DNA from: an uncultured virus (IMG/VR IMGVR_UViG_3300031133_000403)
Taxonomy: Duplodnaviria > Heunggongvirae > Uroviricota > Caudoviricetes
DNA length: 64,000 nt
IMG/VR virus record: IMGVR_UViG_3300031133_000403
Direction: 5' to 3' (one strand)
This document shows positions 27,911-30,990 of the stretch, one piece after another. A program made the position numbers and the translations under genes. Positions within the stretch are counted from its first letter, which is position 1, and each line of letters starts with the position of its first letter. Under the pieces are notes generated by a model that worked only from the letters and a program-made list of their open reading frames with translations, searched no databases and was not told the origin of the DNA.

Positions 27911-28408
27911 TCAGCGACCGGCGCGGCGCAATCGTCGCACCAATCGTCCCAGCAGCGACCCCCGTCCCGTCCCCGGCACCTGCACCCACTCCATGCGGTC
28001 CAGCGACACCATGGGGTGCGCACGGCCCGTCGCCTGGTCCACGACGTCGTCGATCCTCGCGATCGTCAGTCCCGGCATGTCCAGGAGCTCGTGGGCGATC
28101 AGGTCGTTCACCGGCCTGCCCACGTACGCCGCACGCAGGGTGTGCGGTATGTCGACGTCGTGCAGTGTGATCCTGCTCGATTCCTCGTCCGGGCCGGTGA
28201 CGAAGTGCACGTTGTCGGACAGGCTCACGGTCATCAGGAGCCGGTCGCGCAGCACGCTCGAGTGGTGTCTCGCCATGCGCCGTCCTTCCAGCAGATCCGG
28301 TTGACGTTGCGAATCGTACGTCAGCACGTTTCGCACGATCTCGGCGTATCGTCCGGGGTTCACGCCGGCCTTCTCGATCATGAGCAGACCGACCGGATGT
28401 GTTCGCAT
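27911..28408 (-). CDS. PET-GR motif family protein; original RBS and first codon separated by an insertion
   Basis: IPHTLRAAYVGRPVNDLIAHE; original AAGGA-TC-ATG lies at 30105-30114, beyond the element. Confidence 0.75.
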   Translation of the reverse strand: MRTHPVGLLMIEKAGVNPGRYAEIVRNVLTYDSQRQPDLLEGRRMARHHSSVLRDRLLMTVSLSDNVHFVTGPDEESSRITLHDVDIPHTLRAAYVGRPVNDLIAHELLDMPGLTIARIDDVVDQATGRAHPMVSLDRMEWVQVPGTGRGSLLGRLVRRLRRAGR

Positions 28409-28411
28409 TTC

Positions 28412-30096
28412 GGCTTCCACGATTGTCAGGTTGATGGGCAGGAGCTCCAACCTGAAGCCCTGGTCTATGCGACGTGTCCGATCTGAGCGGCGGCCACCGT
28501 GAGGTGTCCGCTTTTCCTCGAACCCATTCGTCGCACCGCGTACCTCCTGCCCGTATGGTCGAAGGGCCCGGGATCCATCGCCTGGAGCGGTGGATGCGGG
28601 CGGCGCACGTCAATCTGCGCCGCTTTCACTGCCCGGTGGATCGACTTCCAGCATTCCGCCTGCGTCGTGGCCTTGGCCATGACGTCCGGCACCGCCCCAT
28701 CCTTCCATGGGAGTGGCTGCACCGTCCGCGGAACCACCGGAAGGCGGTCCTTGTCTCCACGTGACGTGGCAATGCCGCGTCGCGCGATCTCCGCTGCGGC
28801 CGCACAGGCGTCCGGCAGGTCGAAGAGCATGTTGCCGATGGTGGTGGAGTATCCACCCCAGATCGACGAAAGCGTAAGGCCGGACAATGCGCAACGGCGG
28901 GCGAGGCCACCGATCAGCGCATTCCGGCTCCAGAAGTTGATGGTCTGAGCTGCAGGCTCGCCGCGCGACTTCTTGGACCAGCGCAGCTTGCCGAGGCCAC
29001 CCTCGTGGAAGATGGTGGCGGCGTGCCACTTGCGGGCGAGGCTTGAGGCCATACGCGCGGCGCGCGCCATGTGCGTGGCCAGAGCCTCCGAGGATGAGCC
29101 GATCGGTACGTTCATCTGGATCAGTCGATGGTCGAGTATGCGCACTGCGCCCGCGTCGCGCGCGTCTGAGCGGTGATTTATCTCGATGACGGTCAGACCG
29201 ATCCACTGCGGGTTGAGATCCACGCCGACTGCGCGCGACGTCATCGTTCGGATGGCTGGACGCCATTCCGGATGCACTGGGCGGATGGCATGATCGACCG
29301 GTTTGATTCTGTATGCTGAGTCATGCGTATCAGGGTCGTTGCGGGGTCTACCTCGAGGCTTGTGGCCGAGCGCCTCGCGCTCGGCCTTCTGGACCTGCTC
29401 GAGAGTCGTGTCCGGCGGAAGCTTGCGCAGATCCATAGGATCGAAGGTGATGGTCACGCTCGAAGAGCCGAGCGTGAAGCCGATGCCGATCTCGCAGGCA
29501 TTGGTAAGCAGCGCGAGGGCTTTGACCAGATAGCCCGTCTTGCCGGACATCTGAGGCAGGTTGAGTGTCACGGCCTTGCCGAGGAACCCGACCGTTGCCT
29601 TAAGCCCGTCATGCGACAGTTTGAGGTGTCGGTTTCCATTACGCGTGCGGTCGCCAACAATCTCGATGGGTCTGGACTGACGGCATCGCCGCCAGTCCTC
29701 CCGACCGATGAGACCTTTTGCACGTCGTTCGAATTGCTTGCGCCCGCCGAAGATGATCTTTCCGGTAGGCTGCTGCTTGCGCATGCGCAGAGCTTCACGC
29801 GTGGCGCAATGGATCGCCCATGATCCCAGCGGATGCGTCGGGAACAGCTTCTTAAGGATGTTCCTGAGATCCTTCTCCGGCATGAGTCTGTCATTTGGCA
29901 GCCCTGCACGCGCATAACCTGTGCGCACGACGCATGCCTGAAGCCGCTGCCAATCCGCGATCAGCCTCTTGTCGTCGTCTGAAGCGACATACGGGATCGT
30001 GATCGTCTGCACGAGGAAGGATTAGCAACACTCAAGCTTCTGGGGAAGGATTATCGGGTTGGAGACACGGGGATCAACCCGATAATCCGGAGAATC
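28412..30096 (-). mobile_element. Non-autonomous 1685-bp element with TIRs and 8-bp target site duplication, carrying a TnpB-like gene
   Basis: CGCATTTC at 28404-28411 and 30097-30104; inverted ends GATTGTCAGGTTGAT / GATTATCGGGTTGAT, each starting 9 nt inside; excision restores a gene start. Confidence 0.85.
28465..30012 (-). CDS. tnpB: TnpB/Cas12-like RuvC nuclease (515 aa)
   Basis: RuvC-I AVGVDLNP, RuvC-II IFHEGGL, RuvC-III YSTTIGN...LPDACAAAAEIARRG; N-terminal IIFGGRK and GNRHLK; no Cys4 zinc finger. Confidence 0.8.
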   Translation of the reverse strand: MQTITIPYVASDDDKRLIADWQRLQACVVRTGYARAGLPNDRLMPEKDLRNILKKLFPTHPLGSWAIHCATREALRMRKQQPTGKIIFGGRKQFERRAKGLIGREDWRRCRQSRPIEIVGDRTRNGNRHLKLSHDGLKATVGFLGKAVTLNLPQMSGKTGYLVKALALLTNACEIGIGFTLGSSSVTITFDPMDLRKLPPDTTLEQVQKAEREALGHKPRGRPRNDPDTHDSAYRIKPVDHAIRPVHPEWRPAIRTMTSRAVGVDLNPQWIGLTVIEINHRSDARDAGAVRILDHRLIQMNVPIGSSSEALATHMARAARMASSLARKWHAATIFHEGGLGKLRWSKKSRGEPAAQTINFWSRNALIGGLARRCALSGLTLSSIWGGYSTTIGNMLFDLPDACAAAAEIARRGIATSRGDKDRLPVVPRTVQPLPWKDGAVPDVMAKATTQAECWKSIHRAVKAAQIDVRRPHPPLQAMDPGPFDHTGRRYAVRRMGSRKSGHLTVAAAQIGHVA

Positions 30097-30153
30097 CGCA
30101 TTTCCATGATCCTTGCGGCGCGCTCGGTGCGCCATTTCTGGTTTCGATCGTCC

Positions 30154-30990
30154 TCAGGTTCCGGACTTGGCTCGCCGGAACGAGGTCGGATGGTGGAATC
30201 CCGCCTTGGCGATTTTGATCGCGTTGTCGGTGATCTCCACCGGCCGCGCGCCTTCCGAAGGGAGCACCCCGCCCTGCCACATGGAGATCTCCTGGAACGC
30301 CGTGTAGGGGTCGACCGCTTTCGCGAACTGCATTTCCCCCAGCGTGTCCTGGTCGATGGCCCAGGGACGCACGGTGCCGTCCAGGCCGCGCATCGGCCGA
30401 TCGGTCGGATTGCGCGACGCGATCGTGATCCGTTCCGCGATCAGGGACTCCATCGCCCGCCCGGCCAGCCGCCGCGGCGTGAACCACGTGTCGAGGTCCT
30501 GCGTCTCGATGTCGATCTGTCGGCGGCTGATGCCCGGCGCCTGCAGATGGTCCCAGTGCTGCACGACGCCGTTCGAGCCCTCGATCACCTCGAGTCCGTG
30601 GTCGGTCGCGTACCCGCGCAGCGCCTGCGCCGTCCACAGCCAGCGTTCGTCGATGTTCCTGACGTAGCCACCCGTGGGCTGCGCCACGGCATGCACGCCG
30701 TGGTGCACCGTTCCGGCCAGGATCACGGTCGCCGTCCCGAATTCGTGCTGCACGCGGTCCTGCACGGCGTCGGCGAACTCGTCGGTCGGACGCAGCCATC
30801 CGATGGGGGACCGGCCCGAACGTCCCATGCCCTCCAGTCGCCCCGTGCACGCGACGCGCGGCAGATGGATCGTGGTCGCCATCTCGATGTCGGTCAGGCG
30901 CCGGTCGCCGTTGCGCAGGAAGATGACCGTCGCGTCCTGCCCCATGGCCAGGCCGCTGTCGTAGTAGTCGTGTCCGCCGATGATTCGCAT
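30154..30990 (-). CDS. Phage-type hypothetical protein
   Basis: MRII..HDYYD N-terminus and DPYTAFQEISMW...KIAKAGF C-terminus recall a phage protein family (recollection, not searched). Confidence 0.7.
   Translation of the reverse strand: MRIIGGHDYYDSGLAMGQDATVIFLRNGDRRLTDIEMATTIHLPRVACTGRLEGMGRSGRSPIGWLRPTDEFADAVQDRVQHEFGTATVILAGTVHHGVHAVAQPTGGYVRNIDERWLWTAQALRGYATDHGLEVIEGSNGVVQHWDHLQAPGISRRQIDIETQDLDTWFTPRRLAGRAMESLIAERITIASRNPTDRPMRGLDGTVRPWAIDQDTLGEMQFAKAVDPYTAFQEISMWQGGVLPSEGARPVEITDNAIKIAKAGFHHPTSFRRAKSGT

What the first reader, a model, noticed from the sequence alone, without database searches (positions are those of the whole stretch)
28404..30114. TnpB/Cas12-like nuclease inside an element with terminal inverted repeats and an exact 8-bp target duplication
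Seen: CGCATTTC is directly repeated at 28404-28411 and 30097-30104. Exactly 9 nt inside each copy start the inverted sequences GATTGTCAGGTTGAT-N9-CTCCAACCTGA (plus strand, from 28421) and GATTATCGGGTTGAT-N8-CTCCAACCCGA (minus strand, from 30087). Deleting 28412-30096 plus one repeat gives AAGGA-TC-ATG GAA ATG CGA ACA CAT CCG (RBS + MEMRTHPVG...), in frame with the gene ending at 27911. The only cargo is a 515-aa protein with all three RuvC acidic residues and no transposase. Established: prokaryotic TnpB normally travels with IS200/IS605 (Y1 HUH) or IS607 (serine) elements, which lack TIRs and do not make 8-bp TSDs. TIRs plus 8-9 bp TSDs typify DDE families such as IS1, IS6, IS256 and IS1595. 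Inference: a TnpB lineage moved by a different machinery in trans, reminiscent of Fanzor capture by eukaryotic transposons.
Basis: partly seen in the sequence, partly recalled or inferred. Interest (0 to 1): 0.87.

Follow-up and report, generated by a model that had tools for sequence, protein, structure and literature searches.

The report
TnpB-like nuclease riding ISL3-type transposon ends
A 1.7-kb jumping element has split a phage-like gene; it has the ends and 8-bp footprint of an ISL3-type insertion sequence, but its only gene encodes a zinc-finger-less relative of the RNA-guided nuclease TnpB instead of a transposase.

Summary
A 1,685-bp element (28412-30096) lies between exact 8-bp repeats. 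Contigs in 4 of 4 public runs laid on the region carry the empty site with exactly the predicted junction.

The 515-aa product matches no Pfam, NCBIfam or PHROG family. It folds like Cas12f/TnpB (Z 14.4 and 13.8). D265, E337 and D401 are invariant, and there is no zinc finger.

Its clade always sits alone between about 24-bp inverted repeats:
- 15 of 22 elements with both ends have exact 8-bp duplications, all different.
- One Acetobacter persici plasmid holds 5 copies at 97-100% identity plus deletion derivatives down to 45 bp.

The ends match published ISL3-family inverted repeats, which also give 8-bp duplications. The sister clade rides IS607 serine-recombinase elements.

Best reading (0.55): an ISL3-type non-autonomous element in which a TnpB-like gene replaces the DDE transposase, moved in trans.

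No partner was found:
- No ISL3 transposase in the window, on the Acetobacter plasmid, or in 7 of 10 host genomes.
- Insertion is oriented to an asymmetric (G)AAA target motif (24 of 31 sites).

TnpB genes inside DDE elements with inverted repeats are already published (PNAS 2023). This is therefore a new variant, not a new kind.

The parts
28404..28411 (.). 8-bp target-site duplication, copy next to the right end (GAAATGCG in gene orientation)
   Evidence: The empty-site contigs keep one copy only.
28412..28435 (-). Right-end terminal inverted repeat. It reads GGCTTCCACGATTGTCAGGTTGAT from the tip inward and has an ISL3-like tip.
   Evidence: Compared with ISL3 repeats.
28417..28463 (-). Right-end hairpin: the inner part of the repeat (28426-28433) pairs with an internal inverted copy (28448-28455). 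A possible 3' stem of a guide-RNA scaffold, or a second transposase-binding site.
   Evidence: Folds of 18 right ends: about 14 pair the repeat with an upstream copy. No Rfam match.
28465..30012 (-). Gene for a 515-aa TnpB/Cas12f-fold protein. WED/REC part about residues 1-195, RuvC about 257-420 with D265, E337 and D401. No zinc finger. C-terminal extension 420-515.
   Evidence: dN/dS is 0.17 against the copy in L028.
30013..30072 (-). 5' leader between the left repeat and the GTG start. Contains the second arm (30048-30061) of the left-end hairpin.
30073..30096 (-). Left-end terminal inverted repeat (GATTCTCCGGATTATCGGGTTGAT)
   Evidence: The copy in L028 starts GGTTCTCCGG.
30097..30104 (.). 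8-bp target-site duplication, copy next to the left end
27911..28408 (-). Body of the interrupted host gene (MRTHPVG...). Its original start codon ATG lies at 30108-30106.
   Evidence: The joint restores ATG GAA ATG CGA.

Best explanation
This is a 1,685-bp non-autonomous insertion element with ISL3-family ends. It has imperfect inverted repeats of about 24 bp whose tips read GGYTMTYCG, and it makes an 8-bp target duplication. The usual DDE transposase gene is replaced by a single gene for a zinc-finger-less TnpB/Cas12f-fold RuvC nuclease. It inserted into codons 2-4 of a gene in a phage-like region. Shown: the boundaries, the duplication, the empty allele, the mobility of the family, the fold and catalytic triad of the protein, and the likeness of the ends to ISL3 repeats. 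Inferred: (1) An ISL3-family DDE transposase made elsewhere in the cell binds the repeats and moves the element, probably by copy-out-paste-in through a circle. (2) The TnpB-like protein is not the transposase. It is an RNA-guided nuclease whose guide RNA is read from the 3' end of the gene through the right-end hairpin into the flank. (3) It favours the element by cutting unoccupied alleles on sister replicons, or by steering insertion to the (G)AAA motif.
For: - Boundaries and duplication: exact 8-bp repeats. Empty-site contigs with the predicted joint in 4 of 4 runs laid.
- Mobility of the family: 15 of 22 elements with both ends have exact, mutually different 8-bp duplications, and 1 more matches at 7 of 8.
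- Recent activity: Acetobacter persici plasmid NZ_CP014688.1 holds 5 full copies at 97-100% protein identity, plus internally deleted copies of 842, 298 and 45 bp. It has 28 repeat matches against 1 for the control pattern.
- Action in trans on the repeats: the same ends bracket other cargo. One is a 706-bp element with a DUF29 gene and an exact duplication. Another is a 537-bp element on a Polaromonas plasmid with a 7-of-8 duplication.
- ISL3 likeness from papers: ISArsp7 repeats are GGCTCTTCGCGTTTCGTGGTGAAT with an 8-bp duplication (PMC6305408 Table 3, passage). Microcystis ISL3 repeats start GGCTCTTCG with 8-nt duplications and move a MITE (PMC11448079, passage). Tn7546 has GGGTCTTCGGA and AAAATAAG (PMC9782665, passage).
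- ISL3 likeness from loci: elements fetched here start GGTTCTTCGG and GGTTCTCCG. The relatives' repeat GGCTATTCGGATTTGCGTGTGGAAT agrees with the ISArsp7 right repeat at 19 of 25 aligned positions (my count by eye).
- Protein: AlphaFold2 pLDDT 82.3. Full-length matches to Cas12f 8dzj (Z 14.4, 301 residues), ISDra2 TnpB 8h1j (Z 13.8), Cas12k and Fanzor2. The triad is invariant in 36 of 36. dN/dS is 0.11-0.22 in 6 of 6 copy pairs.
- Ancestry: 18 of 79 relatives in viral contigs have a MerR-resolvase (IS607-type) gene just upstream (3 of 3 tested by Pfam). All of these lie on the other side of a branch with 100% support from the clade studied here.
- Precedent: DDE-linked TnpB branches with inverted terminal repeats, and solo copies moved in trans (PMC10691335, section 9).
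Against: - No partner was seen. PF01610 (ISL3 DDE) is absent from 5 of 5 host genomes and from the Acetobacter plasmid. It is present only as weak, dissimilar elements in 3 of 5 further hosts.
- tblastn with 6 ISL3 transposases finds nothing in the window or in the flanks of the 42 loci searched (L001-L028 and L145-L158).
- Scans for the repeat in 5 host genomes and in the plasmid found only TnpB-like elements, their deletion derivatives and remnants. None held another transposase.
- The target preference is one-sided and tied to orientation. The flank at the right end starts GAA or AAA at 24 of 31 sites. The mirror motif at the left end occurs at 1 of 22. That is unusual for a symmetric DDE transpososome.
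- Purifying selection between copies within one replicon fits a protein needed for the spread of its own copy.
- No guide RNA is shown. Rfam gives nothing. RNAalifold finds no pairs on the MAFFT alignment. Fold z-scores of the right ends are modest, from -3.3 to +0.9.
Confidence: 0.55

Rival explanations
1. The element is autonomous. The TnpB-like RuvC protein is itself the transposase, or an obligatory subunit of it. It binds the inverted repeats, cuts, and joins the ends into a target with an 8-bp stagger. Its TAM-reading part chooses the (G)AAA motif and sets the orientation.
For: - The full-length element is the only complete unit found between these repeats, with the classic series of internal-deletion derivatives around it.
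- No other transposase with these ends was found in 5 host genomes or on the plasmid.
- The ORF fills 1,548 of 1,685 bp.
- The repeats stay recognisable across proteins only 35-45% identical.
- The target motif is asymmetric and tied to orientation.
- dN/dS is 0.17-0.19 between copies on one plasmid.
- RuvC and DDE enzymes share the RNase H fold (established knowledge).
Against: - The ends and the 8-bp duplication are those of ISL3, a family with its own DDE enzyme.
- A related branch of the same zinc-finger-less family sits in quite different ends, with a 30-bp repeat starting GGAACTGTCC and 3-4-bp duplications. Other relatives ride IS607. The protein therefore changes vehicles.
- No TnpB or Cas12 is known to catalyse strand transfer (my knowledge).
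- The chromosomes of the Acetobacter and Polaromonas hosts could not be searched.
Confidence: 0.12
2. The element is moved in trans by a transposase that is not of the ISL3 family, either unrecognised or from another DDE family that makes 8-bp duplications. The likeness of the repeat tips to ISL3 is then convergent.
For: - ISL3 transposases are missing from most hosts.
- They are rare in the sampled relatives: 7 of 121 genomes of the order and 14 of 301 of the class at E <= 1e-30. The latter tally includes one unpublished genome, G364, from which nothing else was used.
Against: The likeness to ISL3 repeats covers the whole repeat of about 25 bp, not only the tip (19 of 25 positions to ISArsp7). 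It comes together with the same duplication length. No alternative candidate was seen.
Confidence: 0.1
3. The gene is a domesticated, immobile host or phage gene, for example a TnpB-derived regulator, and the repeats are chance or relics.
For: Copy number is low (1-2) in most Rhizobiales genomes. The family is rare: among 301 genomes of the class, only the starting genome G001 itself has it.
Against: - Insertion polymorphism with an exact empty site.
- 15 exact duplications at different sites.
- 5 near-identical copies plus derivatives on one plasmid.
- An intact catalytic triad.
Confidence: 0.02

Closest known systems
DDE-transposase-associated TnpB branches (DDE-1 to DDE-6) and solo TnpBs between the same ends (Altae-Tran et al., PNAS 2023, PMC10691335)
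   Same: A TnpB-type nuclease inside an element with inverted terminal repeats. Solo copies are presumed to be moved in trans. The TnpB 3' end lies close to a transposon end (section 9).
   Different: A 2026 review (PMC13565253, passage) names the DDE partners as ISL2, IS630 and IS1031, not ISL3. In this clade no member was seen with a DDE gene. The protein lacks the zinc finger yet keeps the RuvC-III aspartate, unlike the paper's zinc-finger-less clade RIIIr-4, where it is histidine. The paper's sequence tables were not available to me, so the clade may or may not be in its tree.
ISL3-family insertion sequences and their MITEs (ISArsp7, Tn7546, Microcystis ISL3 and MITE)
   Same: Repeat tips GGCTCTTCG or GGGTCTTCGGA, repeats of about 24 bp, 8-bp duplications, non-autonomous derivatives, and passenger genes in some members.
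   Different: No DDE_Tnp_ISL3 gene. The only ORF is TnpB-like. Insertion is oriented to an asymmetric target motif.
IS607-family TnpB (serine-recombinase elements)
   Same: Sister clade of the same zinc-finger-less protein family, sharing the motifs GIDLNPxxIG, AYSSxIGN and PDxxAAxxEIARRG. Of 79 viral loci, 18 carry a MerR-resolvase gene upstream.
   Different: This clade has no recombinase gene. It has inverted repeats and 8-bp duplications, which IS607 lacks (review passage).
Fanzor nucleases captured by eukaryotic cut-and-paste transposons
   Same: A TnpB relative carried between inverted repeats with target duplications. The guide RNA is thought to run through the repeat (PMC10711439, passages). 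Fold match to Fanzor2 9b0l at Z 10.2.
   Different: Prokaryotic. Closer in fold to Cas12f and ISDra2 TnpB (Z 14.4 and 13.8).
ISDra2 TnpB and Cas12f (solved structures 8h1j, 8dzj)
   Same: The WED/REC plus split RuvC architecture over residues 1 to about 430.
   Different: About 10% identity. No zinc-finger/TNB insert between RuvC-II and RuvC-III. A conserved C-terminal extension of about 95 residues. No IS200/IS605 context.

Membership tests
TnpB/Cas12 (OMEGA) nuclease superfamily | N-terminal WED/REC module followed by a split RuvC fold | tested here: met
   AlphaFold2 model at pLDDT 82.3. Cas12f 8dzj Z 14.4 (301 aligned, rmsd 4.2). TnpB 8h1j Z 13.8. Foldseek gives 40 matches at E <= 0.001, led by Cas12f and Cas12k.
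TnpB/Cas12 (OMEGA) nuclease superfamily | RuvC catalytic D-E-D triad | tested here: met
   D265, E337 and D401 are invariant in 36 of 36 sequences and in 11 of 11 distant relatives.
TnpB/Cas12 (OMEGA) nuclease superfamily | C4 zinc finger (TNB domain) between RuvC-II and RuvC-III | tested here: not met
   AYSSxIGN is followed directly by PDxxAA, with no cysteine pairs. Pfam Cas12f1-like_TNB scores below its cut-off in only 2 of 28 relatives.
TnpB/Cas12 (OMEGA) nuclease superfamily | Match to curated sequence models (Pfam OrfB_IS605 or OrfB_Zn_ribbon, NCBIfam) | tested here: not met
   0 families in Pfam, NCBIfam and PHROGs. The PDB profile search gives only TnpB 9nzp at E 1.1. JGI/IMG names 2 of 10 distant clusters 'IS605 OrfB family transposase'.
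TnpB/Cas12 (OMEGA) nuclease superfamily | Guide RNA encoded at the 3' end of the gene, running into the flank | tested here: inconclusive
   The right end has a hairpin in about 14 of 18 elements. There is no Rfam match and no RNAalifold pairs. RNA-library contigs cannot show RNA ends.
ISL3 insertion-sequence family | Terminal inverted repeats of ISL3 type (tip GGCTCTTCG-like) | tested here: met
   Family repeat GGCTAWYCGGATTT...GTGGAA. L028 tip GGTTCTCCGG. Compared with ISArsp7, Tn7546 and Microcystis ISL3 from papers, and with ISL3 loci L118, L136, L163 and L164.
ISL3 insertion-sequence family | 8-bp target duplication | tested here: met
   Exact in 15 of 22 elements, and 7 of 8 in 1 more. 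The empty site is confirmed.
ISL3 insertion-sequence family | Encodes a DDE_Tnp_ISL3 transposase | tested here: not met
   No Pfam match for the only ORF. No tblastn hit with 6 ISL3 transposases in the window or the loci. It is therefore an element with ISL3 ends, not an ISL3 insertion sequence.
IS200/IS605 | Y1 (HUH) TnpA, no inverted repeats, no duplication, insertion 3' of a short motif | tested here: not met
   Inverted repeats and 8-bp duplications are present. No recurrent Y1 gene stands next to any of the 107 loci clustered.
IS607 | MerR-serine recombinase TnpA, no duplication | tested here: not met
   Absent from all 28 loci of this clade. Present only in the sister clade, at 18 of 79 viral loci.
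DDE-associated TnpB branches of Altae-Tran 2023 | Placement in one of the named branches of that tree | not testable with these tools
   Only the supplementary PDF text was readable. The sequence tables and the tree were not.

The most novel reading that the evidence does not exclude
The TnpB-like protein is needed for the element's own movement. Either it is the transposase acting on ISL3-like ends, or it is a TAM- or RNA-reading targeting subunit that places the right end next to (G)AAA in one orientation. Either way, a Cas12 ancestor would be taking a direct part in transposition without any DDE gene in the element.
Probability: 0.13. Interest if true: 0.9.

Novelty: new variant of a known kind. 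Interest (0 to 1): 0.6.

Why it matters
TnpB is the ancestor of Cas12, and how it changes vehicles is the prokaryotic counterpart of Fanzor capture in eukaryotes. This clade stands out in several ways:
- Pfam and NCBIfam do not see it.
- It lacks the zinc finger but keeps the catalytic triad.
- It has left IS607 elements for ISL3-type ends.
- One plasmid shows a fresh burst of copies with no visible transposase partner.
- Insertion is oriented to an asymmetric motif.

That gives a compact, testable system for two open questions. What does a TnpB nuclease do for a copy-out-paste-in DDE element, which leaves no empty donor site to repair? Can a TnpB-like protein take part in target choice or in transposition itself? 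It also adds a new scaffold to the set of small candidate RNA-guided nucleases.

Tried and rejected
- No whole genome is held for the window, so copies in the same genome could not be counted.
- Earlier findings of this scan: nothing for this protein.
- Metagenome scan with the protein gave one locus only, L028.
- A viral-contig scan with the interrupted gene's product found no relative, so no empty allele by that route. The empty allele came from laid contigs instead.
- Rfam: no match at E <= 1 over 28200-30300.
- RNAalifold on 18 right ends gave 0 pairs. The MAFFT alignment is poor, and one of my ranges (L028) ran into the flank.
- Left ends show no common hairpin.
- Solo repeats in five host genomes proved to be remnants, not other elements.
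- ISL3 loci fetched from Alphaproteobacteria gave no clean duplications, so ISL3's own target preference could not be compared.
- BLAST of a 40-nt repeat against plasmids gave only short hits. One led to the Polaromonas 537-bp element.
- The Acetobacter element occurs in only 2 plasmid records.
- tblastn with an ISL3 transposase against plasmids hit 2,682 records, but the listing does not say whether any is from Acetobacter.
- Relatives of the plasmid record could not be searched, because a W handle has no relatives.
- RNA library X8 holds contigs over the 3' part of the gene, the right end and 27 nt of the L028-type flank. It also holds the flanking genes at like depth. Contigs show neither transcription nor RNA ends.
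- I considered IS200/IS605-style subterminal hairpins and dropped the idea: duplications are present and no Y1 gene is.
- I considered clade RIIIr-4 of the 2023 paper and dropped it: that clade has histidine at RuvC-III.
Full report
**1. The observation.**

CGCATTTC occurs at 28404-28411 and at 30097-30104. The two inverted 15-mers lie at 28421 (+) and 30087 (-). The degenerate pattern has 3 matches in the 64-kb window against 0.22 expected, and 0 of 100 shuffles reach 3. The repeat finder adds a perfect 14-bp hairpin at the left end, 30048-30061 with 30075-30088. The single long ORF between the repeats is 30012..28465 on the minus strand, 515 aa with a GTG start.

The decisive check came from public runs. 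When window:27700-30800 was laid against contigs of four runs, all four held a contig that joins 28403 to 30097. The joint skips 1,693 bases, and 8 letters fit either side. Three of the runs are DNA (phyllosphere metagenomes) and one is an RNA library. This is exactly the element plus one copy of the repeat, and it restores ATG GAA ATG CGA at the start of the downstream gene. The empty-site contigs differ from the window by about 3-10%. They therefore come from related strains that never had the insertion, or lost it long ago, not from excision in the same strain.

The same runs also hold the right end joined to another flank, the one seen in metagenome locus L028 (loose ends at 28408).

**2. 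The protein.**

Pfam, NCBIfam and PHROGs give no family. A word-indexed search found 96 relatives, all unnamed or 'hypothetical' and none with a precomputed Pfam domain.

In an alignment of 36 relatives the invariant columns include:
- D265, in GxDLNP
- E337, in HEdGLGKL
- D401, in PDACAAAAEIARRG

There is no cysteine cluster between the last two.

A profile search of PDB sequences gives only a TnpB chain (9nzp) at E 1.1. The AlphaFold2 model (pLDDT 82.3, pTM 0.79) settles the fold:
- Foldseek finds 40 chains at E <= 0.001, led by Cas12f and Cas12k over the full length.
- The Foldseek-independent search ranks Cas12f 8dzj at Z 14.4 (301 residues, rmsd 4.2).
- ISDra2 TnpB 8h1j scores Z 13.8, Cas12k 8bd5 Z 13.5 and Fanzor2 9b0l Z 10.2.
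- Bacterial RuvC 4ld0 scores Z 10.4 on residues 259-423.

So this is a TnpB/Cas12f-fold protein with an intact RuvC triad but without the zinc-finger (TNB) insert.

A full HMMER scan of 1.84 billion representatives finds 1,258 clusters at E <= 0.001. Most are about 430 aa long. They share the same zinc-finger-less motifs. JGI/IMG of 10 clusters looked up 'IS605 OrfB family transposase'. Pfam's Cas12f1-like_TNB model touches 2 of 28 relatives below its cut-off.

**3. The element family.**

Relatives at 32-46% identity (one short fragment at 70%) occur at 27 loci in Rhizobiales genomes. One copy at 91% identity sits at a different site in a metagenome contig (L028).

Comparing copies within genomes fixes the boundaries. 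The left end reads GGCTAWYCGGATTTnnnnGTGGAA, and the right end is its inverted copy ending ...TAGCC. The window's ends are diverged versions of the same repeat.

A tblastn of the plasmid collection led to Acetobacter persici plasmid NZ_CP014688.1. It has:
- 5 full copies at 97-100% protein identity (one of them, L150, with an internal TAG stop), plus truncated and internally deleted copies
- 28 matches to the repeat pattern, against 1 for the reversed control
- derivatives of 842, 298 and even 45 bp, the last being repeat joined to repeat

Over all elements with both ends, 15 of 22 have exact 8-bp duplications, all different. One more matches at 7 of 8, three are near-matches shifted by an indel, and three show none. 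I dropped no rows; L011 was not tabulated because it is the same locus as L009 (98.5% identical).

The same ends also bracket other cargo:
- a 706-bp element with a DUF29 gene and an exact duplication in Bradyrhizobium
- a 537-bp element with a 153-aa ORF on a Polaromonas plasmid

The ORF is under purifying selection. dN/dS is 0.11-0.22 in 6 of 6 copy pairs, including copies on the same plasmid.

The family is rare. Among 301 sampled genomes of the class, the profile found it only in the starting genome G001.

**4. What kind of ends.**

Passages from three papers describe ISL3-family elements:
- ISArsp7 has repeats GGCTCTTCGCGGTTGGTGGTGAAT and GGCTCTTCGCGTTTCGTGGTGAAT with an 8-bp duplication (PMC6305408, Table 3).
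- Microcystis ISL3 repeats start GGCTCTTCG, give 8-nt duplications and mobilise a MITE (PMC11448079).
- Tn7546 has the repeat GGGTCTTCGGA and the duplication AAAATAAG (PMC9782665).

ISL3 elements that I fetched from Alphaproteobacteria start GGTTCTTCGG, GGTTCTCCG or GGCTCTTT. L118 is confirmed as DDE_Tnp_ISL3 by Pfam.

Against the ISArsp7 right repeat, the Rhizobiales repeat GGCTATTCGGATTTGCGTGTGGAAT agrees at 19 of 25 positions with one gap (my count by eye). L028's left tip GGTTCTCCGG equals the ISL3 tips seen here. Repeat sequence and duplication length thus both point to ISL3.

ISL3 is listed among families with circular intermediates, presumed to move by copy-out-paste-in (bioRxiv 10.1101/2023.06.07.543989, passage). 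It can carry passenger genes (ISPpu12a; PMC4133298, passage).

**5. Where the protein came from.**

A scan of viral contigs found 142 relatives, of which 79 loci were kept. Many lie in contigs of 100-500 kb, often several per contig.

I clustered all ORFs of 90 aa or more in 107 loci. One recurrent neighbour emerged: a protein of about 200 aa just upstream at 18 viral loci. Pfam finds Resolvase in 3 of 3 tested and MerR in 2 of those 3. That is the IS607 type of transposase.

In a quick maximum-likelihood tree of 100 rows, the 19 rows of this clade lie on one side of a branch with 100% SH-aLRT support. That side has 25 rows, 6 of them unlabelled representatives. All 17 rows with a serine recombinase lie on the other side, scattered among its 75 rows. 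The root is for drawing only, so this shows separation, not direction.

Another branch of the family (L106, L108, L112) sits alone between 30-bp repeats starting GGAACTGTCC, with 3-4-bp duplications. The protein family has thus changed vehicles more than once.

**6. What argues against simple movement in trans.**

- PF01610 is absent from 5 of 5 host genomes and from the Acetobacter plasmid.
- In 3 of 5 further hosts it occurs only as weak matches whose repeats are not close to those of the resident TnpB-like element.
- In the samples it occurs in 7 of 121 genomes of the order and 14 of 301 of the class at E <= 1e-30. The latter tally includes the unpublished genome G364, of which nothing else was used.
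- Six ISL3 transposases find nothing by tblastn in the window or in the flanks of the 42 loci searched, L001-L028 and L145-L158.
- Repeat scans of five host genomes and of the plasmid found no unit with another transposase.

The target is one-sided. In gene orientation, the flank next to the right end starts GAA or AAA at 24 of 31 sites (binomial tail about 7e-25 at a generous 5.4% per site). The mirror motif at the left end occurs at 1 of 22. On the Acetobacter plasmid 12 of 14 right flanks start AAA. Of the 12 left-end junctions read there, 9 have a G immediately before the 8-nt word. Such oriented insertion is not what a symmetric transpososome is expected to give.

The right end, but not the left, carries a long hairpin in which the repeat pairs with an internal inverted copy. 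This holds in about 14 of 18 elements, and the arms change together with the repeat. Fold z-scores are modest, from -3.3 to +0.9.

**7. Reading.**

Most likely (0.55), the element is an ISL3-type non-autonomous element whose DDE gene has been replaced by a TnpB-like gene. An ISL3 transposase elsewhere in the cell would move it. The nuclease would work with an RNA read through the right end into the flank.

Movement in trans, the RNA and the nuclease's role are inferences. The role could be homing into empty alleles of multicopy replicons, or steering insertion.

The bolder reading is that the protein itself is required for movement or for target choice. The evidence does not exclude it (0.13). 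The lack of any partner and the oriented target favour it. The ISL3 identity of the ends and the family's habit of changing vehicles count against it.

**8. Known or new.**

Altae-Tran et al. 2023 (PMC10691335; sections 5, 8 and 9 and passages read) already describe:
- six TnpB branches tied to DDE transposases, all with inverted terminal repeats
- solo TnpBs between the same ends, presumed to be moved in trans
- loss of the zinc finger in some branches

A 2026 review names the DDE partners as ISL2, IS630 and IS1031 (PMC13565253, passage).

I searched the paper library four times: for TnpB with terminal inverted repeats and target site duplication, and three times on ISL3 repeats and duplications. 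The listings I scanned and the passages I read showed no paper that links TnpB with ISL3-type ends. The supplementary sequence tables of the 2023 paper were not readable here. They may already contain this clade.

I therefore file it as a new variant of a known kind. Its interpretation is partly supported.

Noticed in passing
window 1-64000: The window is 67% G+C. Nearly all likely genes lie on the minus strand. Several match phage families: DNA helicases, an 862-aa RNA ligase/phosphatase, glutathionylspermidine synthase and a tRNA amidotransferase-like protein. It looks like part of a large phage or phage-like island. The element's gene has lower third-position G+C (0.75) than its neighbours (about 0.9).
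   Followed up: partly
window 28465-30012, protein residues about 196-255: The longer members carry an insert with a conserved RGRPR motif that resembles an AT-hook, in a low-confidence part of the model. The 481-aa Methylobacterium and Bradyrhizobium members lack this insert but still insert next to GAA.
   Followed up: no
window 28404-28420 and L028 4585-4612: Both close copies sit right at the start of a downstream gene, in the same orientation. The right repeat plus duplication leaves an ATG preceded by GGAAG. Several duplications contain AATG. The element may favour ribosome-binding-site and start-codon regions.
   Followed up: no
L029 2394-3099 (Bradyrhizobium genome G002): A 706-bp element with the same inverted repeats and an exact 8-bp duplication. 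It carries a DUF29 gene instead of the TnpB-like gene.
   Followed up: yes
L145 4000-4536 (Polaromonas naphthalenivorans CJ2 plasmid NC_008757.1): A 537-bp element with the same kind of repeats and a 7-of-8 duplication, holding a 153-aa ORF with no Pfam family. It sits on a betaproteobacterial plasmid where tblastn found no TnpB-like gene.
   Followed up: partly
L170 75-119 and L171 74-118 (A. persici plasmid): Two units of 45 bp that consist only of a left repeat fused to a right repeat. They are the smallest derivatives of the element.
   Followed up: partly
L106 2553-4475, L108 2482-4404, L112 2560-4476 (viral contigs): A distant branch of the same zinc-finger-less family sits alone between 30-bp repeats starting GGAACTGTCC, with 3-4-bp duplications (TTA, TATT). 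It may be a second, independent capture by a DDE-type element.
   Followed up: partly
L009 3140-4435: A canonical TnpB gene with cysteine pairs lies just upstream of the truncated TnpB-like copy in Methylobacterium alsaeris.
   Followed up: no
phage records LR756500.1 and Prevotella phage Lak-A1: Weak tblastn matches (24-28% identity) to the N-terminal half of the protein in huge phage genomes. This agrees with the many relatives found in large viral contigs.
   Followed up: partly
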